Source: Octopus vulgaris
Taxonomy: Eukaryota
Assembly (NCBI GenBank): GCA_951406725.2
Contig: OX597825.1
Span: 39,556,001-39,620,000 of the forward strand
DNA: 64,000 bases
Direction: 5' to 3'
The translations under genes were made by a program, and so were the position numbers. Numbering within the stretch: position 1 is the first letter of the stretch; every line of letters starts with the position of its first letter. Below the pieces are notes generated by a model. The model saw only the letters and a program-made list of their open reading frames with translations. It ran no database searches and had not been told where the DNA came from. Shown piece after piece: positions 13,101 through 61,856 of the stretch.

Positions 13101-15278
13101 TTATCAAGAAACGTGCATAAGAAAATCCTGGCAGGTTGAAACTAACCGAAAGTAAACTGATAGAAAATTAATTGGGGTATTAGGGCCATACTATCGCTAG
13201 AAGTAATCGTTGCTTGCAAGTTTTGGACAGATATTTGACGGGTCTCTGTCAAATATTGATATTTCGATCTGAGAAAGAAAATAAAAGAAAATCTCAAAGC
13301 AATGAATTTAAGAAAGTGGAAGTAGGAAGGTAGACTCCTGATTCTGTGGCTTATAATTCGGAATGGATGTTATGAATAATATGACGTCTCGCATGTCACG
13401 TTGAAGAACAAACCTTCAAAGATATTATCTGCAATTATTTTCCATTAAACGTGGACGATCTTGTCAGCATTATGTTCTGTGTTTATCATTTTTACAACAC
13501 AAAGTGGCTGTATACGGAAAAGATTTTGAATATGAATTAGATAGTAGTCACAGAATATAATTCCCGTTCATTTATTGATGACAAAGATCTATTCGGTGAT
13601 ATGGATTAAAACTGATATCAAATAAGTGGCAGGACACTCAAAATGTCCACACCATGTAAACAAACGCCGTTGATTTGAACTACGGATATATACTCAAGTA
13701 TGTAGCTATTGTATACAAAGAGCATGTGTGTTCATGAAAACGATTGCCATATTTATCAAGGCACACTGGAATTAAATTATCCATTCTCGTCACACTCACT
13801 TGAAGAAAGGCTGAAAATACGTTTCTATTGCAATCTTTTAAACTAACATCTGTTTACCGACTGATGTGCTACTTCAATCCTGATAATTTTTGAGAAAAAG
13901 CGTTATGAAATGTAGTGTACCAAGTAAATTTTGATTGGTCATGAAAAACACACATAAATGATTTCCCATTTCTGTGGATGAATAAGAAGCAAGATCTGTG
14001 CAATTCACTTTTTTCAGCTACTGATATTTGATGTCATAAAATGTGGAAGCTCAAAAGAAAAAAATGTGATATTTTATAGACTGCTTGTCACTATTATCTA
14101 AAATCAATATGCGGAGAAATATTGTAACTATCTTTACAGGCTGCTCACTCGTCACCGCTTCTGAAATTATATATACATGTGTACACAAACACACACGAAC
14201 ATACAGATATATATACTCATACAACTTATGATGTATCACATCATGTATCATACCCTTCATTGTCTATTTTCTATTGAATACTACTACACCTATACGTCTG
14301 TATACCTATGTGATGTATAAATTCATTAACCCCTCATTCATTGTCAAAGAATTCGCAGTTATCCAAAATATCAGCTGCTTAAATATATATTATCATTTCG
14401 TTTTCAAAATTCAGGCATTGATTCGGTAGTTATTTAGGATCATTTATTCGTAATATTATATCTGAATATACAGTAATATCTCACATTGATGTTTCATAGT
14501 TTAGAGCAACCACTTCCCTTCGCAAATATCTCTATTAAGAGATTGTGTAACTGATACTCATAAATGTCAGACAATAAATTTTGCAACAGCATACATCAAC
14601 ATAAAGTGGAATTTAAAACTTTGCAGCAAAATTTGAAAATTGTCAAAAGAAAGTAGACAGCGCACCTCAGAGTATAAATCTTTATATGAAAGCATGAAAG
14701 ACAATAAAGAAACATAACTGTTACACTTTTCTCTTGCAAGGACGTTAAAGTCAGTGACAGCTTTCATGCTAAAGATGGATTTTAGCAGCAAGAATATATT
14801 TTACATATTCTGTTAAATGATATTATTGTATTTAATGTCACTTTTGGGGATTCTAGTGCAAGGCCTTATGAAATACTATATTCTCGTTAATTTTATATGC
14901 ACTACTTCTTCTACGACACTTGTACATATTTTTCGGTAAATCCCAACGGCAAACGACATCTAGGAGCCCTGAAACTCAGTTGCAAAAATCAACATAAGTC
15001 TTTCCTCCTTGAAGCCGGAATCTATCCTACACACATGGGAAACAGAAGCTGCTGGCCATCCATCTTGTCGAAAATCATTTCATTTCGGTTGTTCCACATT
15101 CGGAGAAAAGAGATAGACTGGAGAAGAAGCCAAAAACAAATCTACTCTACATGCCTGACATGCGATCAATGACCGAGACAATTTTCTTACCACCGGACTT
15201 TCTAAGCGAGTCATGCCAGGTTTCAGCATCATGTATATACGGATTGAACCAAACTCGGATACGAGTGGTGCTTGCGAC

Positions 15279-18625: not shown

Positions 18626-19904
18626 CGAGGGACGTTCAATAAGTAATGCCTCTGACCCACTTGCAGTTGTTGAATTTTGCATGTGCAATCATTTATATCT
18701 CTATAGAGAAAGTGGCAAATTACAGCTCTGAATTAATTGTGGTTTCTGATTTACAGGTGTTTGAACCGAGTCAAGTGTGAAATGGAGCCTGTTGAGTGTC
18801 GAGCAGTGATCCGGTTTTTGTATTTGAAAGGACGCACACCACGGGAGACTTTTGATGAAATGAAAGTAACTTATGGTGATGATGCCCCATCATATGGCCT
18901 TGTAAAACGCTGGCATCGTGAATTCAAACATGGTCGGAACTCTGTGGATACTGCTCCCAGATCTGGTCGCCCCTTCTACCATTGATGAGGCATCTGTCCG
19001 TCAAGTTGAGGCTGCCATTTTGGAAGATCGACGCATAATTATTCGCCAAATAGCCCATGAGGTCAAGATTAGTACCGGGTCTGTGGAAACTATCATTCAT
19101 TACCATTTGCATATGCAAAAGGTGTCTGCCAGATGGATTCCCAGGTTGCTGACGCCTTTCCAGAAGCAAGAACGCGTCGAGTGCTCGAGGGTGAATTTGG
19201 AGATGTGCCAAGAAGATGAGTCAAAATTTTTCAAAAGACTGATTACACAGGATGAAACCTGGGTCCATCACGATGATTCAGAGACCAAAGCCCAGTCAAT
19301 GCAGTGGAAGCACCGTGACTCACCCCATCCAAAGAAGGCAAGGGTGTAGCCCTCCGCCGGCAAGGTCATGCTCACTGTCTTCTGGGACCAGGACGGACTA
19401 GTGATGACAGATTTCCTGGCAAAGGGTACCACAATTACAGGAGCCTATCATGCTTCACTTTTGAGGAAATTAAGAGAAGTTATCAAAATCAAGAGGCGGG
19501 GCAAGATCAGCAAAGGCATCCTCCTCCTGCAGGACAACGCTCCGGTCCACAACTCACTTGTCGCCAGATCAGAAGCACAGGCGTATGACTATGAACTCCT
19601 CCCCCATCCCCCTACTTTCCTGACCTTGCACCCTCTGATTTTCACCTCTTCCCAGTCATGAAGTTGTTTTTGAAAGGAAAGCGTTTCCCAGATGATGCAG
19701 CCTTGATTTCTGAAGTCACGTTCAGTTTGGAGGACCAAGCTAAGGTCTTCTCCAAAAACGGTCTCCAGAGCTGCATCAAACAATGGGAGAAATGCGTAAC
19801 TCTGGGTGGTTCCTATGTAGAAAAAGCCTAATAACTGTGCCAAGTTTCGTTGCTCTACTGCTATGGGAAGTGGGTCAGGGGCATTACTTATTGGACGCCC
19901 CTCG
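18626..19904 (+). mobile_element. Full-length mariner DNA transposon (1279 bp)
   Basis: TIRs cgagggacgttcaataagtaatgcctctgacccactt / aagtgggtcaggggcattacttattggacgcccctcg; TA target duplication on both sides. Confidence 0.95.
18782..19831 (+). pseudogene. Mariner DD34D transposase pseudogene
   Basis: MEPVECRAVIRFL, WIPRLL, TQDETW, LQDNAP and HPP..PDLAPSDF motifs spread over frameshifts, with a TAG at about 19347. Confidence 0.93.
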
Positions 19905-28827: not shown

Positions 28828-31800
28828 AACTTGTTTCTTCATAGCCCACACGGGGCCTACATAGAGGGGTCAATAGAGCCTGATTTGGGGTTAGGCACAC
28901 AAAATGAGATTTAGAAATTTACAACGATGTCGAATGGAAATCGGATGGTAAATTCAAAACATGAAAACGAGGCGGGAGAATAGGTTTTAGTTCCGATCCC
29001 ACGAGCCCTGTTCCACTACCAACACCTTTTGGTAACCCTTCAGACATGTTTACGCAGTGTCTTTCACACACAGCATTCGTGCTACACGTGCCCATCTGTC
29101 TTTGTACATTCTCACTGACAGACCCACATTCTTTTTCAGGTGACTTGTGAAAAATCTCATCAAACCGAGGCCAGAGATGAAGCAGCCCATCACCAATCCT
29201 TTCATTCGCGACTTCCATATCACCTCTTTCACGATTGCTACTACCGCGAGAAAACAATTCTTACCTTCTTTCGTAAGGAAATCCGGTGGGTTAATTTTTA
29301 AAATTGACTCAGACGACAGCTGTACTATTCTTGCATCTAACAGCAGGTGTTCTGCATAAGCCCACACTTCCGGACTCTGAACAATAGCGTGCAGGATGTT
29401 TTCCCAGTTCTTCTCGCATCTTTCACAGGCCGATGTGCTGGGATGGCCGTGTCTAGTGAGCTTATCCCGAACGGGTAAGGTTCCTCCGTAACACAGCTGG
29501 AATTTAACCAGTGGTTTCGGCCTGAATGTCCTTTGGAACAGACTGTCTAACTAATTATTATCGAAACCTAAGGTCTGCCCTAGTGTGTTGACACATCCAG
29601 CCTCTACCAACCTGCTATAAAAAGATGCGGTTGTACCAAAACCACAGGCAATGCCCGAGCTACGGAACTGTAGGAGAGCCTTACGGCACACCGTATACCA
29701 AGTACCGAACCTCGATCTTCGACGAAACCAGCTTTCTCGTCCACCAAAACTAGTGAACTTGGGAAGCATCTGTTTCGCAAGCAGAGACCACACCCGTTCA
29801 CCATGCAGGTAAACACAGAGATTCCTCAACCTCAACGCATGTTTGGGCATAAACAGCCAATGCATCCCTAGCCCACGGTTTTTCACATCTGATAGAACGT
29901 CTCACAAATGGAGTCGAGTCCCTTCCACAAGAAGCTGAAGATCTGCCTCTCCAACTTGCTCAACCACGAATCTCGACAAGGATCGACGGTTACGCGGTAA
30001 ATGATAATCGCAGCGAGGAAAACATTGGCCACCTCCACCCGCGCATTCAAGGATAGCCACCGTCAAGACCAGGTCTTGACTACGAGGGTCACCTTGTTCG
30101 ACACCTCAGTTCAGTTCTTTTCTACATGGAGATCTGGGCCAAACCAGACACCCAGCAACTTAACAGGGCCCTCCGTCCAACTTCCCAGGACGCTATTCGC
30201 AGGCAACGACTTTCCCATCTAGGTGCCGAGTTGCAAGCCGACTTATTTTTCCCGGTTAATCTTTGCTCCTTCCACCGTCTCGTAAGCCTTAATAGATTCG
30301 CCTACCTTATGTAGGTGTTCCATCTCGGTTACGATGATGGTGATATCGCCCACATATGATGAAACTGATCCTCCACCACCTGGATTCGTTGAGATGTCAC
30401 TCAACTTTCGCAGCAACGGCTCAAGAGCCATCACGTACAAAGGTGCTGAGAACGGATATTTTTGGCGAACCGAACGTTTGATGCAGAACCGCTTCGAAAG
30501 ACAACCGTTCACCCGAACGATCGAGTTGATGTTATTGCACAATTGTATGATCTACCAAAGGGAGCCAAGACTCAGTCCGAACCGTGCGAGAGCGGACACC
30601 AGGTAATGATGGTCTATCCTATCGAACGCTTTAGCATGGTCTAAATGGACTAGTGCCCCACCCTTGGCAGAATTACTAACAAACACGTCTACGGTGTAGC
30701 GTATAAGATAAAGATTATCCTGGATGCTTTTGCCGGGCATAGCATATGTCTGTGTTTCACCTATCAGACCATCCGCGGCACTTGTCAATCTTTTTGCTAA
30801 CACCTTGGCCAAAATTTTCAACTTTGTACTTAGCAGAGTGATGGGCTGAAAGTCCTCTCTACTATTCCCCTTGTCCGGGTCCTTTCTAACCAGCGTCACC
30901 ACTCCTCGGGAATCAACCAATTCTGGTGCCAGTTTGCGTAAACACTAGCCAGTAGGTGTCCGAACAAGTCTGGCATATTCTTATATAGTTCGTACGGTAG
31001 ACGATCAAGACCCAGCGCCCTACCAACACCATAGTCTGCTATAGCCTCTATCATTTCCTCAGGTGTGATCGACCCTCCACAGAACTCCACATCCTGCCCC
31101 GTGAGACGCGGCAGCCAGTTACTTCTTTTCTTCCATGAACAGCGCTTCCAGGAGAGTGATTTTATCCTCTACCCCCAGCGTTACTGCCTCGACCAACCAT
31201 ACAGCATTCACCACCTCCAGTGGTATGTTGCTGATCTTTCTTCGTGACGCCCTCCTGCCCATATATATGGGCAGGAGTTCCACGTCGTCTGTTCTCAGTG
31301 GGTCTAGAGAATGGAGTTTTGCTTTTTCTGCAGACGTCATTCTGACCTTAACCGTTGCAAACCTTTTACCTCTTGTGAGGTATGTGATCTAGTGCCAAAA
31401 TGCCTTGACGCATCTTTCCACCTGCATCTCTACGACGTAGTCTGTGTTAATATCTTTCACTTTGTATGTTTTGTAGATAATCGTACTTTTATTTCTGAAA
31501 CTTCCCTTGTTAACATTCTTTTATGGTCTTCCAGTAATTCTGTGTTAATTTTTTTAACCTTTCCTCCCGCTCCTGCCGCGAAATCTATCTTTCTTGGCGT
31601 CTCTTCATTGTTTATTGCTATCTCGCCAACTGCCAGGCTTACTACCTCAATATTTCTTCTAATGTTCAATTTTTTTTTGTGAGTTTTTCGTGGTAGTTTC
31701 CTCCCTTCTGGGAGTTATAACTAGTGTACATCTTTCTTCTGAGTCGTCTTCCGACAGATACAACTCTGGAGTTATTAAGTTTTTCCATTTTAAAAAAATG

Positions 31801-34996: not shown

Positions 34997-36873
34997 TTCA
35001 TTTGGCATTTTCCAGGGTGACTCACTATCACCACTCTTCTTTTGTTTAGACCTAATACCTCTCTCGAAATTGCTCAATGACGCACAGTACGGATACAAAA
35101 TGTTGGATTAAAATATAAATCATCTCATTTACATGGATGATTTAAAGCTCTTTGCAAAAAATTACCAACAACCCAAGGGCTTACTAACGATTGTTAAACA
35201 ATTCAGCGATGATATCAGAATGCAATTTGACCTCGATAAATGTGCAAAAGCTACCTTTATCAAAGGAAAAATGACAGAAACATCTAACGTTTACCTCGAC
35301 CAGCAGAATGTCATAAAAGATTTAGATCCAGCGGAGAGCTACATGTACCTAGGAGTAATTGAAGGGGATGGAATAGGGCATTCAGTGATGAAGGAAAGGA
35401 TCAGGAGAGAATGTTATCGCAGAGTATGAGCAATACTCAAGACAGAGCTGAATGCAAGAAACAAGAGCGAAGCGATCAATGCTTTCGCCATACCAGTCGT
35501 GACTTACCGTTTCAATATCGTTAACTGGTCAATTACTGAAATATGTAATCTTGAGAGAAAAATACGAAAACTGTTGACAATGCATAGAATGCACCACCCT
35601 AAAGCAGATATAGAACGACTTTATCTGCCAAGAAAAGAGGGAGGCCGTAGACTTTTACAACTGGCAATAACAATGAAGATTGCTACAAATGGCCTAGACA
35701 CCAACCTGAAAATCTCTGAGGACTGGATGTTAAAACTTGCCTCAAAACATAAAGACAAGAAAGCATCATACTCAGTAACAAAACAGGCAAAAAAAAATCT
35801 AAGTAAATTCCAAATACAACAAATTTCGGAATTAGACACACAAGAAACAAGCACAGAAAAAGCTAAACGCATGACAACCCGTGCTAAAACAGCTGCTTTA
35901 GATATTCTGAATAATAAATGGCAAGAAAAACCTCTCTATGGCAAATACCCAAAGAGAGTGAATAATGCAGATTTTGACAAAGCCCTGACCCATCAATGGC
36001 TAATGGCCTCTGACTTAAAATCTGAAACCGAAAGGTTTATCATAGCAGCTCAAGATTAATGCCTACCTACAAAGAACTACAAGGCCAACATTTTAAAGAA
36101 CGGCAGTAACCCAACATGCCGTGTATGTCAACAACAAAATGAAACCATTGATCATGTTGTCTCCAAGTGCAGTCTTCTTGCACCTACAGAGTATCTCAAC
36201 AGGCATTATAGAGCTGCACAATATATTCACTGGGTAATTTGCAAAAGCCTGGACTTGCCACATGATAAAAACTGGTGGGAACACAAACCACCTCCAGTGC
36301 TTGAAAATTACCACATCTCACTCCTCTGGAATTTCACCTTTCAAACTGACAGAAAGATAGACGCGAATAGGCCAGACATCATATTGAAAGACTCCTGACA
36401 AAGAACATGCCTCCTCATTGATATGACTGTCCCCGTCGATATAAACGTATCTGTCAAGACCTACCAGAAACTGAGCAAATATAAAGATCTGGAAATAGAA
36501 ATCAGCAAAATGTGGAACCTGAAGACTAATACAATACCTGTTGTCATAGGTGCCCTAGGAATGATAGAAAAGGGGCTGATTGCTACCTAACCCAGATACC
36601 AGGAAACACAAAAATGGCAGAAATTCAAAAGATAGTGCTCATGGGAACTGCTCATATCCTACGCGACATACTTTCTATGTAATCTCAAGTTTTAAAACAA
36701 ACACAATTTTCGTATGTTCTTTTAGGCATTCACTAGTACAACACTAAGTATAAAAAACCAAATATATGGCACGCTAGGCATAACACCAACATGAACTTCC
36801 AACTTGTTGTCTCTTGAGGTCTCTGGGTGAGACTTGGTGCCAGCTTCTGCAAATGTAAAGCGAAAGTCAAACG

Positions 36874-36875
<2 letters not shown>
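34997..36875 (+). mobile_element. 5'-truncated Dong/R4-like non-LTR retrotransposon (RT plus REL endonuclease) in (TAA)n
   Basis: GIFQGDSLSPLFFCL, YMDDLKL, RLYLPRKEGGR, CRVC...HVVSKC, RPDIILKD, LIDMTVP, KYKDL; several stops and frameshifts; (TAA)n on both sides. Confidence 0.9.
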
Positions 36876-36943
<68 letters not shown>

Positions 36944-37007
36944 GTGGTAAGAAGGTAACAATAATAAAAATAACAATAACAATAATAATAACAATAATAA
37001 TAATAAT

Positions 37008-37083
<76 letters not shown>

Positions 37084-37104
37084 TTAATAATAATAATAAT
37101 AATG

Positions 37105-38545
<1,441 letters not shown>

Positions 38546-41979: not shown

Positions 41980-42519
41980 GATATTAATAGTTATCGCCAT
42001 ACCAATATGGCAGTCTATAAATATAAGACTAAAGCTGTCGCTGATTAGCTCCAAGAGGCCATCGCCTCCAGCTAGCTATATGACACACGAACCTGCGTCC
42101 ATTACAACCTTCGAAAAGAGGAGGTCAGCCGCTTCACCTTGCTAGTCATACATCTGCAAACATGTTTCAGGGTTGTTGCCCTTTATCAATGCAGCGTAGT
42201 CATAACCAGCAGGTGTCGCTACTGACCGTCTGTTCGAAGATTTTATTTACCTAGTTACAGTGGAATACATCCACTTGTTTTCAATAATAGAAATATTAAA
42301 ATTACTAGCAATGTGAAGCGGTGACCTCCCCTGTTCAAAGGTTTTAATGGTCGCAGGTCCGTGTGTCATATAGCTAGCTAGAGGCGATGGCCTCCTGGAG
42401 CTAATCAGTGACAGCTTTAGTCTTATATTTATAGACTGCCATATTAGTATGGCGATAACTATTAATATCCACCAACGCAGCCGTAATCTCCTTTAGAAAG
42501 ACTTAGTAATTTTAATATT
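41980..42519. repeat. Second family A locus (direct 41980-42307, inverted 42304-42519) with HHR motif at 42154-42194 (-)
   Basis: Highly similar to the 957-2337 unit; cleavage triplet mutated to GTT; flanked by (TA)n and (GATA)n. Confidence 0.9.
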
Positions 42520-42524
42520 TTTAT

Positions 42525-42572
<48 letters not shown>

Positions 42573-57039: not shown

Positions 57040-58837
57040 ATATATATATATATATATGTATGTATGTGTATTTTTTACCATATGTATGTGTTTCGTTTCC
57101 ATGCGTACAAGTAACACAGGAAACATTATAAATAGATACCAGGGTAGTAAGAAATTCATATAAGTACCAGGGATATAACAAACTTCTTATAATGTTAGAG
57201 ATTTCAAGGTTTAGTGAAATGTTGTTGTATTACATAGATAAATTGAAAAATGGATTTAAATGCAAGTTATATTTAAATCTTTATATTAGCGACATATGTT
57301 TCTAAGAAATCATTGGTATTATTCCGGAAATAATAAAATAATGTAAAACAATGCAATCTTCTAAGCAGTGGTAAAAAAGAGAAACAAAATGCATCGATAG
57401 GATATTTTAACCTAATGTTATTACTGTATATATGATGAAAGGAACGCTGGTAAGTCACTTTAAAAAAAATCGTTAAACGATATAATGTCAAAGGCAATTT
57501 ATAGAAAGAGAAGTAATAGGAAGAAAGAAAGTAGCAGTAAACTAGAAGTGGAGAAATATAGTGCGATATGTGATTAGGAATAAGGATTTAATAGCTTTTG
57601 AGTGATTACTAAAATAACTAATATATATTAAATAGATATATTTAGTGGAAATGAAATGCAAGAAGACTGTTAAAGGTCGAATGTTATAGACTGATAGAAA
57701 TTACTTATAGGAACTAAAGGTATGTTTTTTTCCAATGATTGCAACGGTACTCATGTTCTTTAAACGTATTTACAAGATGATTCTCTGAGAACAGGATGAA
57801 ATACAGTTCATCGTTACAGAGGAAGCAAAAAGATTCACCTTTATCATAAGGAATATTCCATTCCAAATCAAATTGTTTACTATGTTCCTTTTGAGACCAA
57901 ATTAATTTACTAAGCCCAGTATTGTTGCGCTTATATATATATATGTCTAAATGAAGAGTAATGGTTAGATATTATTTCGGACAACTGTGATGAAGAACTA
58001 AGTATATATAAAAAAACTAATAACGGCCGTACCGGAAGAAAATTTACATTGATAAACAGAATTTCTAGTCTTAGAATTACTACTAAGGAAACGAATGGAA
58101 TTGGAATTTATATCCAAAGTACTAATATTTTTGTTATTATTGTTCAAAGGAAGGTTAATGTTAATAATGTCAATGTTATTATTTTCATTAAGTGAATTTA
58201 CATTTAACAACTTATTGTTATGCGAAGATATGATTTCTAAAAGGTTTTTGGAATTTGAATAATCTATTCTGATTCGGTGTAGATTGATAATGGAATTCTA
58301 TCTTGAATCTTTTAGGAAATTCTTATCTATAGCTTCACGAAACTGATAAGGGAGATTGGAGTTAATCTGTTTAACATGTGGAATTATCAACGAAACTGTT
58401 TTGCTAAGACGTATCTTGTTAATAGAGGAATTATCTTTAAAAGTCCTAGATGTACTTTTATAACGAAAAAGGGTCTTAAAGAACAGTTATCTTCTTTTCG
58501 CTGCAAAATCACATTTCTCGATTTAGTGTTGTTATTCGAGCTAAAATGTAAATTTGTCTTAAACTTATGACTTGATTTCACGTCCCGATTAATAGAGGTA
58601 GAATTAATGTCAATAGAGTTAATATAGATAATTCTTTTCTTTATAGTCTGTTTTAAGTAAGGCAGCGTTACAAATTCTGCCTTTATCCTTTTAATAGCTT
58701 TTGAGTGATTACTAAAAGAGCTAATATATATTAAATTAGTTGAAGGTTTATGGTATGGGAAATATAAATCATTATGTAAGTCAAGGATAATATCCAAATA
58801 GTTGGCTTTAGTTATATCACCGAGGATAAAAATTTGC

Positions 58838-59171
58838 AAACGGTCTCCCTTTATCGAAAACCGGTGATTCCCGTACGCCGAAGACAGGCAAATACCTAGA
58901 AACTGCAGTCCGTGCGTATCACTTAGGTTGACGAGAGAGGGATGACCTCCCTTTGCAAGTACCATAAGGACACAGAAAGTGTGCATAAAGCCAGCTGGAG
59001 ACGATGATCTCCTGGGGCTAAAAGCTACAGTAACACCCACTCTTAGTGGTTAGCCATATTGAGATGGCTAGTATACTTTACGTAATAATATTGTTGTTAC
59101 TGATAAACATAGTAGTGCATGTACGTTCTAATATATTTATATACGTATATGACGCATGGTATATCCAATGT
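58838..59171 (+). repeat. Family B pLTR copy inserted in inverted orientation inside the RT
   Basis: Reverse complement of 60854-61186. Confidence 0.9.
58873..58915 (+). ncRNA. Type-I hammerhead motif with CCGAAGA core (family B)
   Basis: gtacg-CCGAAGA-c agg caaata cct a-GAAAC TGCA GTC-cgtgc. Confidence 0.65.
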
Positions 59172-60493
59172 TTAATATCCATGTTTCGGAAAAAAACCAA
59201 TCTGTATGTAACGATTTGTAATTTTTGGTTTGAAGCATTTTCAAGGTAGAGTAGATAATAATCAGGGTATATACCTCCATTGATGTTTGAGAATTGGTCA
59301 GCCATCCCATAAAGGATATATATTGACCAAATCAGCGACATGAAAACCGTCGGGCGTATATTTACGGATCCACAGCTTGTTATCAAATTTAATAATAGAT
59401 TTTCTAACATGACATTAATTTCAACCTTGATGAGACCTGCTTTGCTGTGTGCGAGCCAGATTGCCTAGTTGAAAACATTTAGGTTAATGTAGCAATAGTA
59501 ACTGGAAATGTCGAACAGGATAAACTTAGTACAATTCTTGTTATTAATAGCATTAAACCAGTCGACCACTTGGAATGAATTAGACCATAAATTAAGCTTT
59601 AACTTTTTTAACTAATGTAGGAATAAATTTATCTAGAATATTTTTGCTAAGTACACCGATACCAGAGCTGGGTTGAGTTATTAAAAAAAATTTGGTTGTG
59701 ATCTTTAAAAATAAAACGAGATTTTTTTAACGGTAAGTCATATTTCTCTATAATTTTCTTAGTTGGCATTCCTGATTGCACTTTTACCAGTAATCCTATA
59801 ATTCTTTTGTATTTCTTTTCTAAGCAATTCTAGGTAGTAATCCTTGAGAACCAGTATAAGTTTCCTGTTTTATCCGATTGAACCAGTATCCCATCTATGT
59901 TATGAATTTCTTGGTGATATTGTGAAGATACCTCAGCTGTTTATTCCTTAAGGGTGAACGTTGGAATTTCACATTCTTCTCGATGGAATTGTTTTTAGAT
60001 TTACACAATTTCATGAATTCGGAAGTTAGATCGTTCGAGAGTTCTTTAATGTCTTTATTGTCGAAGAAGAAAGCAAGCGATTAATATGGTTAATAAAGGC
60101 GTTTGTCTTACTAATGAGCTGCTTTAGGAAAACTTTCTTTGGGAGGAATGGGTTCATCCTTAAGAGATGCATTTATATCAAATAACTTCATGTGTTTACT
60201 ATTTTCTTTGCAGGTTATGAAATAATACCAATATTGTATTCTAAACATACATGGGAAGTATACAGATTTTAATAATACTTGTGTTTAACACCATATATAT
60301 ATATATATATATATAAATGGAAAAACAAATTTAGTTTGTTCGTCAACTTATGAAATTATAATGGATTATTTATTCAATGTACAAATGAGAATATCAAAAG
60401 TATACAAAATATTATATAAATCAATAGATAAGATAATAATACAAATACAGATTTTAAAATTCATATAATAAATTAATGAAATCCTAAAATTAT

Positions 60494-60628: not shown

Positions 60629-60853
60629 TATAATTAACTTTAAAAAATATTAATAATAATATTAATATACTAAATATGATGCACGTATTACTTAATATAT
60701 AAAAACAAACAATAAACAAATACCCAAATACACACACACACATATATATACATATAAAAATACATATATACATACACATACATACATAAGCAAAGCATAT
60801 ATACTATTCACAGGCACAAAGTACATTAATGAACACCATTAAACAATATATTA

Positions 60854-61400
60854 CATTGGATATACAATGCGTCATATACGTATATAAATATATTAGAACG
60901 TACATGCACTACTATGTTTATCAGTAACAACAATATTATTACGTAAAGTATACTAGCCATCTCAATATGGCTAACCACTAAGAGTGGGTGTTACTGTAGA
61001 TTTTAGCCCTAGGAGATCATCGTCTCCAGCTGGCTTTATGCACACTTTCTGTGCTCTTATGGTATTTGCAAAGGGAGGTCATCCCTCTCTCGTTAACCTA
61101 TGTGATACGCACGGACTGCAGTTTCTAGGTATTTGCCTGTCTTCGGCGTACGGGAATCACCGGTTTTCGATGAAGGGAGACCGTTTACTAATACTTATTT
61201 ATTGTTTTTCCAGTAACTTCCGCACTGATTTCGAAAAACTGTCTACAGTAACACGAGAGAGGGATAGCCTCCCTTTGCAAATACCATAAGGGCACAGAAA
61301 ATGTGTCTAAAGTGAGCTGTAGACGATGATCTTCTGGGGCTAAGAGCTACAGTAACACCCACCCTTAGTGGTTAGCCATATTGAGATGGCTAGTATACCT
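60854..61400 (-). repeat. Family B pLTR upstream of the Naiad ORF (HHR at 61109-61151, -) plus partial inverted copy at about 61253-61400
   Basis: Same sequence as 58838-59171; fold-back arrangement. Confidence 0.85.
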
Positions 61401-61856
61401 TAACAATATTATTGTATTAACAATAATCTTCAACAGGTCATACATACTATAGTAATGTCTACTAACATATCAAAAATTCACGATGCAAGATTCAATATAT
61501 ATATATTCATACAAATACATATATATATACATGCTCATACAAAATTCTATGCGTGTAAGCATATGCTGAGACAATCAGAATATAGTTCTCTATTTATACA
61601 TCCACGTAAAGCAAACAAATTCAATTTTAAAATCCAAAAGAGTAATTCCAAACTTTTTGTTAAAGCTGAATTTAACCCACAAACTTTATGCTTCTGTTTT
61701 ATGTATATTAAAGATTTTAATATATATTGGGGGTTAGGGAGCGGTCATTGTAAATCATAAGCTATTTCCAAATTGTTAATTCATTTGAACTTATCCGCTT
61801 GATCTGTTGTAAACAATAGGAGGTCTGATTATTAGTTAAATAAATCATATTACACT

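What the first reader, a model, noticed from the sequence alone, without database searches (positions are those of the whole stretch)
58940..59080. Covarying multi-hairpin domain downstream of the HHR, shared by diverged repeat families
Seen: families A and B differ in their HHRs and flanks but share a downstream layout. A consensus (2190-2330, + copy) reads tgacctcccYt...ggacgca..gtgtgtcatatAGCTAGCT-agaggc gatg gcctct-tggAGCTaatcAGCgACAG, then hairpins agtct/agact and gccata/tatggc. B (58940-59080) reads tgacctccctt...ggacaca..gtgtgcataaAGCCAGCT-ggaga cgatga tctcc-tggGGCTaaaAGCtACAG, then hairpins ccact/agtgg and tagccat/atggcta. The central stem shows compensatory swaps (A-U to G-C and G-C to A-U) around a conserved GATG loop. 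A third decayed version lies at about 5950-6056. It matches no ribozyme class I recognise. Inference: an undescribed structured RNA module coupled to the HHR (RT recognition, priming, circRNA stability or a second catalytic motif).
Basis: partly seen in the sequence, partly recalled or inferred. Interest (0 to 1): 0.8.

Follow-up and report, generated by a model that had tools for sequence, protein, structure and literature searches.

The report
Shared RNA fold in hammerhead retroelements
Thousands of short, protein-less repeats in this animal genome carry a hammerhead-ribozyme motif followed by the same predicted RNA fold, kept by compensating base changes and lying at the two fixed points where the copies end, so it is likely the handle by which they borrow the reverse transcriptase of Penelope-like transposons.

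Summary
A, B and C are three of at least a dozen related ~340-360 bp non-coding repeat families. They behave like non-autonomous Penelope-like elements (retrozymes): type I hammerhead motif, tandem and inverted copies, (TA)n next to the ends, 5' truncation and two fixed 3' ends. Three core patterns give 4,142, 4,284 and 6,698 genome matches against 0, 5 and 0 in reversed controls. The downstream domain covaries (93% of cells paired, slid controls 30-46%). That helix also holds in family H, found afterwards, with four two-sided changes in eight pairs. The GATG loop, the internal loop and one hairpin vary, so a second ribozyme is unlikely. The 'tgacctccc' motif belongs to a rod under the hammerhead. 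Rfam has no match, and the fold was not found in the pLTRs of the autonomous PLE families sampled. Most likely it is a cis-acting RNA element for mobilisation in trans that positions reverse-transcription initiation. The partner enzyme is unidentified and nothing was tested in vitro.

The parts
58826..59083 (+). Family B element, 5'-truncated, ending at the first fixed 3' end (site 1); inserted in opposite orientation into a decayed Hydra-type PLE
58832..58960 (+). Predicted long imperfect rod (extended helix I) with the hammerhead at its tip; holds the 'tgacctccc' motif
   Evidence: z -4.77 (family copy L008 -8.47)
58872..58916 (+). Type I hammerhead motif with palindromic helix III (CTGCAG); altered core CCGAAGA and a C-A mismatch at the base of helix II; predicted cut after 58910
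   Evidence: read from sequence; family-wide
58969..58985 (+). Hairpin H2 (6 bp in the family; this copy has two private mismatches)
58989..59019 (+). Hairpin H3: outer 4-bp stem, variable internal loop, inner 5-6-bp stem with most of the two-sided changes
59027..59034 (+). 5' strand of the long-range helix PT; its partner lies in the tail, which this copy lacks
59037..59049 (+). Hairpin H4, variable; absent in family P
59051..59070 (+). Hairpin H5, followed about 13 nt later by site 1
60936..61250 (-). Second B copy, inverted; shares about 95 nt of 3' flank with the first copy
   Evidence: (I3)
61253..61402 (+). Third B copy, 5'-truncated, head-to-head with the second
955..1918 (-). Family A tandem array (361-bp period, 2.7 units) with tails; the leftmost copy ends at site 2 next to (TA)n
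1925..2337 (+). Family A inverted arm: 5'-truncated piece with H5 and tail, then a full unit (hammerhead 2124-2164, domain 2219-2337) ending at site 1 next to (TA)n
41980..42530 (.). Further head-to-head pair of family A copies
5949..6058 (+). Family C copy, truncated inside H2, ending at site 1 next to (TA)n
57726..60194 (-). Decayed Hydra-type Penelope-like ORF split by the B insertion; not the source of the domain

Best explanation
These repeats are non-autonomous Penelope-like elements (retrozymes), and the conserved fold is likely the cis-acting RNA element by which they recruit a Penelope-like reverse transcriptase/endonuclease in trans and set where copying starts. Seen in the sequence: a 340-360 bp unit made of a hammerhead motif, then H2, H3, a long-range helix PT enclosing H4, H5 and site 1, then a tail hairpin and site 2; the helices are predictions backed by covariation. 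Inferred steps: a tandem or circular transcript folds; the partner protein, directly or through a host protein, binds the sequence-conserved helices (H2, outer H3, H5); its endonuclease nicks AT-rich DNA; reverse transcription starts internally at site 1 (A/C-rich single strand inside the PT junction) or at site 2 (behind the tail hairpin) and runs 5'-ward, giving truncated, tandem and inverted copies.
For: Two fixed 3' ends at homologous positions in A, B, C, D, F and H: of 190 copies, 98 stop at site 1, 65 carry the tail, 24 read through and 3 are other. In an anole PLE the tail lies between two internal RT start sites, in an AC-rich stem loop, and the minimal template lies downstream of the hammerhead (PMC11167929, parts 1-2 read). 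(TA)4+ follows 90 of 163 ends against 7.6% background. Covariation: 93.3% of 704 cells paired, 60 two-sided cells against 20.3 shuffled, slid controls 36-44%; 93.7% in 19 sequences that include later-found families. PT has 5 of 8 pairs with two-sided change and forms in unaided folds of H copies (z -4.3, -3.6). Copy-private changes break pairs 176 of 281 times, so selection acted on the master RNAs. The hammerhead core varies while the domain stays, and hammerhead cleavage was not needed for insertion in vitro in PMC11167929.
Against: No partner was found: model R1 gave no recurrent pLTR hit in 155 locus scans of three Hydra-type families and a Neptune-like family with relatives. The pLTRs seen end 40-70 nt behind their hammerhead, not about 175 nt. 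Family P is 99% identical across chromosomes, so a partner should be active now. The domain alone folds no better than shuffles in several copies. PT has a mismatch in A and its register in H was set by my trimming. The sequences are related, so shuffle counts are not probabilities: pairs with two-sided change were reached by 27, 3 and 91 of 500 shuffles. Loci were picked by similarity to 3'-containing queries, and two rows of the tail class look miscalled. There are no binding, probing or expression data.
Confidence: 0.55

Rival explanations
1. The domain binds a host protein or stabilises, exports or circularises the retrozyme RNA; the RT start sites are set by short local motifs only.
For: The fold was not found in the autonomous pLTRs sampled. 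The Neptune-like family has its own two ends with only a short tail hairpin. A whole unit folds compactly (z -6.5). Animal retrozymes accumulate as circular RNAs (PMC7229834, passages).
Against: PT straddles site 1 and pairs with the tail, which ties the fold to the ends; the spacing from H5 to site 1 is kept across families.
Confidence: 0.22
2. The domain is the inherited pLTR structure of an autonomous PLE family that I did not sample: the same job as in the best explanation, but an ordinary cis element carried over by deletion derivatives.
For: Xenopus retrozymes are related to PLE pLTRs (bioRxiv 10.64898/2026.07.22.740005, parts 1 and 3 read). Protein searches scored only 150 of 4,944-14,487 candidates each, so other PLE families can be hidden. 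R1 scores family H and its kin at only 37-70 bits.
Against: None of the domain copies found near PLE ORF remnants showed an ORF-3'UTR-hammerhead-domain order; those inspected were insertions or segmental duplicates.
Confidence: 0.13
3. A second, new self-cleaving or ligating ribozyme.
For: Multi-helix fold with sequence-conserved stems; degenerate hammerheads in successful subfamilies; in A-G the internal loop and the linker AGC looked invariant and could form a pseudoknot.
Against: In later families the internal loop reads GACA/TAG or is pyrimidine-rich, and the linker AGC is lost or shifted, so the pseudoknot fails and no run of invariant unpaired bases remains. No Rfam ribozyme other than a weak hammerhead matches.
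Confidence: 0.05
4. Shared ancestry only, or a DNA-level element (promoter, cruciform) with no RNA-level selection.
For: All families are related; stems are partly invariant; C-A states occur at four pairs, three of them at helix ends.
Against: Two-sided changes recur on separate branches, with three pair types at two positions. Paired columns vary less than unpaired ones (27 of 64 against 69 of 92). G-U states on the hammerhead strand are more frequent than C-A, a modest sign of strand.
Confidence: 0.05

Closest known systems
Non-LTR retrozymes of animals (Cervera and de la Pena 2020, PMC7229834; Li, Clavereau and Pollet, bioRxiv 10.64898/2026.07.22.740005)
   Same: Non-coding units of about 350 bp with a type I hammerhead, from monomers to long tandem arrays; proposed to be non-autonomous derivatives of PLEs.
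   Different: In the passages read, neither paper describes a covarying domain shared across families or two fixed 3' ends; the preprint has no occurrence of 'secondary structure', 'octopus' or 'mollusc'. Circular RNA and cleavage are untested here.
pLTRs of endonuclease-bearing Penelope-like elements (PMC8557442, PMC3846280, PMC4209133)
   Same: Hammerhead with palindromic helix III, including the published U3-A8 core variant; inverted 5'-truncated copies; optional 3' tail; (TA)n bias.
   Different: No ORF; the tail is about 45-60 nt rather than 30-40; about 175 nt of structured RNA lies between hammerhead and first end, where the autonomous families sampled here have 40-70 nt.
RT-initiation region of the anole Poseidon element PAc (PMC11167929)
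   Same: Two internal ends bracketing the tail, an A/C-rich start region, required RNA downstream of the hammerhead, hammerhead activity dispensable.
   Different: In PAc the region overlaps the ORF start and no conserved multi-helix fold is reported in the parts read; sequence or structure homology was not tested.

Membership tests
Non-LTR retrozyme | Short non-coding unit in tandem repeats | tested here: met
   Periods 361, 354, 353, 360 and 342 bp; no coding ORF seen in the units
Non-LTR retrozyme | Type I hammerhead in each unit | tested here: met
   Motif read by eye or script in A, B, C, D, F, H, I, J and P; weak Rfam HH9 hit in D, 31.2 bits, below the gathering score of 52; several cores are altered
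Non-LTR retrozyme | Self-cleavage and circular RNA in vivo | not testable with these tools
   Only assembled contigs were available
Penelope-like element (non-autonomous) | Optional 3' tail between two fixed ends | tested here: met
Penelope-like element (non-autonomous) | Inverted 5'-truncated copy next to tandem copies | tested here: met
Penelope-like element (non-autonomous) | Homology to the pLTR of an autonomous PLE | tested here: inconclusive
   Not found in the families sampled; sampling incomplete
Penelope-like element (autonomous) | RT plus GIY-YIG ORF | tested here: not met
   Nearby ORF remnants are separate insertions
Twister-sister-like ribozyme | Conserved 5- and 6-nt internal loops with a CA cleavage site (PMC11620745, passages) | tested here: not met
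   Loop is 4x3 or 3x2 nt and varies between families; no Rfam hit
Any Rfam family (SECIS, H/ACA, telomerase RNA, HDV-like, twister, pistol) | Covariance-model match over the domain | tested here: not met
   0 gathering hits in the window; in 6 loci at E<=10 no hit covers the domain

The most novel reading that the evidence does not exclude
A parasite-specific RNA module that the autonomous Penelope-like elements of this genome do not carry: a compact, covarying RNA that captures a telomerase-related reverse transcriptase in trans and fixes its internal start site. It would be a retrozyme counterpart of the template-positioning domains of telomerase RNA, and a portable tag for Penelope-driven insertion.
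Probability: 0.25. Interest if true: 0.82.

Novelty: new variant of a known kind. Interest (0 to 1): 0.6.

Why it matters
How Penelope-like reverse transcriptases, the sister group of telomerase, choose their RNA and their internal start site is open, and so is how animal retrozymes get copied. Here a dozen diverged families in one genome give a covariation-backed model of the RNA at the start sites, young and apparently active substrates (family P), and several intact candidate enzymes. That makes the question directly testable in the published in vitro assay. It also suggests that the fold, not the hammerhead, is what these elements cannot lose.

Tried and rejected
Pseudoknot between the internal-loop GCT and the linker AGC: plausible in A-G, not kept in H, I, L/M or P. 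Alternative helix of the ACAG strand with an upstream segment: complete only in C/F rows, broken in A, B, D and E. The adjacent Hydra-type PLE as source: B splits its ORF, and its pLTR is different. An apparent endonuclease-A fusion: the copies viewed share both flanks, so segmental duplicates. Metagenome pattern scan: 125 matches in 121 loci; one had an inner stem and none had both stems, so chance level; the scan covered 12 of 64 parts. Sequencing runs: no RNA holder listed; the contigs laid show no starts, ends or informative joints. Pfam gave nothing for the Hydra-type protein. A genome-wide covariance-model search was not possible, so the number of families is a lower bound from exact patterns. 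Tree-aware covariation, precise end mapping and a PLE phylogeny were not run. Literature searches found no description of this domain; the library lacks most subscription journals and Repbase/Dfam, and I saw no supplements, which (PMC8557442 files S1-S2, the preprint's tables) may list related elements.

Full report
Setting. The window lies in G000 (2.8 Gb, 227 contigs), an AT-repeat-rich animal genome. The B motifs are at the stated place, as are A and C. A covariance model built later finds ten full and one partial copy in the window. DNA searches show dispersed families: B 62 matches from 40 scored of 2,700 candidates, A 78 from 40 of 2,339, C 50 from 40 of 436.

What the elements are. Each unit is non-coding and 340-361 bp long. 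It holds a type I hammerhead motif with a palindromic helix III. Cores differ: CTGATGA or CTGACGA in C and I, the U3-A8 variant in A and B2 (a variant published for PLEs, PMC4209133, parts 1-2 read), and U4C-altered cores in B1, most H copies and the P copy viewed. Copies occur as truncated monomers, tandem arrays and head-to-head inversions. Their 3' ends fall at two places. Of 190 copies, 98 stop about 10-15 nt behind the last hairpin, 65 carry a further 45-60 nt tail, 24 read into the next unit and 3 are other; (TA)4 or more follows 90 of 163 ends against 7.6% of random windows (ends inspected, whose output was partly cut; two tail rows look miscalled). This is the pLTR-and-tail signature of Penelope-like elements (PMC8557442, passages and section 11; PMC3846280, passages). 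In the anole element PAc the tail lies between two internal RT start sites (PMC11167929, parts 1-2 of 4). The elements therefore fit non-LTR retrozymes (PMC7229834, passages), recently argued to be non-autonomous PLEs (bioRxiv 10.64898/2026.07.22.740005, parts 1 and 3 of 5 and passages).

How many families. The core pattern from A/B/C has 4,142 matches against 0 reversed. Model R1 then picked up a diverged family H (50.8 bits; 2,766 candidates). Two further patterns gave 4,284 against 5 and 6,698 against 0 and exposed more families. The counts overlap and are not additive. By eye at least a dozen families or subfamilies can be told apart; the letters are my labels. Family P is 99% identical across chromosomes and forms long arrays.

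The fold. The domain proper starts at hairpin H2. RNAalifold on a plain MAFFT alignment of 22 natural tail-bearing copies predicts H2, both stems of H3, H5, a tail hairpin and a long-range helix PT from the ACAG strand to the tail. Counting 32 pairs: 93.3% of 704 cells pair, 10 pairs and 60 cells have two-sided change (shuffles 8.0 and 20.3; 27 and 0 of 500 reach them), slid controls pair 36-44%. At subfamily level 27 of 64 paired columns vary against 69 of 92 unpaired ones, while copy-private changes break the pair in 176 of 281 cells and are two-sided in 10. Between A1 and B, 8 pairs changed on both sides (7 still pair) and 2 on one side. With later-found families added (19 sequences, 21 pairs, PT left out) 93.7% pair and 10 pairs are two-sided, with 3 of 500 shuffles reaching that; RNAalifold recovers 20 of these pairs. 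PT was not recovered in that alignment because MAFFT shifts the H-type rows by three columns. After trimming each row to start at PT, a register I imposed, 5 of 8 pairs are two-sided and 89.6% of cells pair. Without any alignment, two H copies fold PT as a 9-bp helix (z -4.3 and -3.6), and a whole family I unit folds the same architecture (z -6.5). Against: isolated domains often fold no better than shuffles, PT has a mismatch in A, and related sequences inflate shuffle tests.

What is not conserved. The apical loop, the internal loop, the linker and H4 all vary. In 19 sequences only scattered unpaired bases are invariant. That removes the pseudoknot I first considered and leaves no candidate catalytic core. 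Rfam has no match over the domain.

The partner. The B copy at 58826 splits a decayed PLE whose intact relatives carry the DKT, CxxC and CxH features described for the Hydra clade (PMC8557442 section 11; no tree built). The genome also holds many intact copies of a 781-aa RT-GIY-YIG element with a Neptune-type linker and of a 727-aa Hydra-type element. The pLTRs viewed have hammerheads but end 40-70 nt behind them. R1 found no recurrent hit in 13, 30, 30, 59 and 23 loci of these families. The few hits were non-autonomous copies; those inspected were insertions or segmental duplicates, and L107 and L306 were not inspected. The Neptune-like family shares the U3-A8 core with A and a CTC-loop-GAG tail hairpin with B and C: a weak lead. 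Sampling of PLE families was incomplete.

Mechanism. Shown: anatomy, fixed ends, target bias, covariation. Inferred: that the ends are RT start sites (by analogy with PAc), that the fold is read by the PLE protein or a helper, and that it positions initiation, since PT encloses site 1 and pairs with the tail. I put this at 0.55; a host-RNP or stability role at 0.22; plain inheritance from an unsampled PLE pLTR at 0.13; a second ribozyme and no RNA-level function at 0.05 each.

Novelty. The element class is known. The shared domain is not in Rfam and was not found in six literature searches. One earlier, unchecked scan note reports a different covarying RNA in a coral Penelope-like element; I did not test it and it is no support. 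Verdict: new variant of a known kind, interest 0.6.

Noticed in passing
L141:1250-2050 laid on run X4: In X4 (RNA by guess only, organism B) 32 of 74 listed difference sites are A>G or T>C, against 16 of 54 and 13 of 50 in two large runs of unrecorded kind, with an A>G run in the H2 loop. This could be A-to-I editing of double-stranded transcripts, but alleles or another species look the same.
   Followed up: partly
L339:1245-3587; L505:1950-2900: Young Neptune-like PLE with many intact 781-aa ORFs, a U3-A8 hammerhead and a long 5' region; the tail seen in insertions matches two segments about 620 nt apart in the 5' region, which may reflect an intron or an internal repeat.
   Followed up: partly
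L372, L121-L136, L379-L408: At least three Hydra-type PLE families, two with long open frames (727 aa and about 905 aa, the latter with an asparagine-rich insert) and their own hammerheads.
   Followed up: partly
window 58826-59178 and 60846-61198: Inverted duplication of the B copy together with about 95 nt of its 3' flank, enclosing the 5' half of the Hydra-type remnant.
   Followed up: no
G000:C1:31009333-31013634 and C1:20002126-20004694: Family P arrays of up to 12 units in head-to-head arrangement, 99% identical across chromosomes; the best substrate for experiments.
   Followed up: partly
window 35430-38436: Fragments of a non-LTR retrotransposon among (TAA)n repeats; R4/Dong-like by recalled motifs, not tested.
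   Followed up: no
window 18906-19349; 29050-30944: A mariner-like transposase fragment (recalled motifs) and a LINE RT fragment (RVT_1 and zf-RVT hits).
   Followed up: no
window 3786-4083: 93-bp tandem repeat between (TA)n runs, next to a 202-bp near-perfect inverted repeat at 3378-3795.
   Followed up: no
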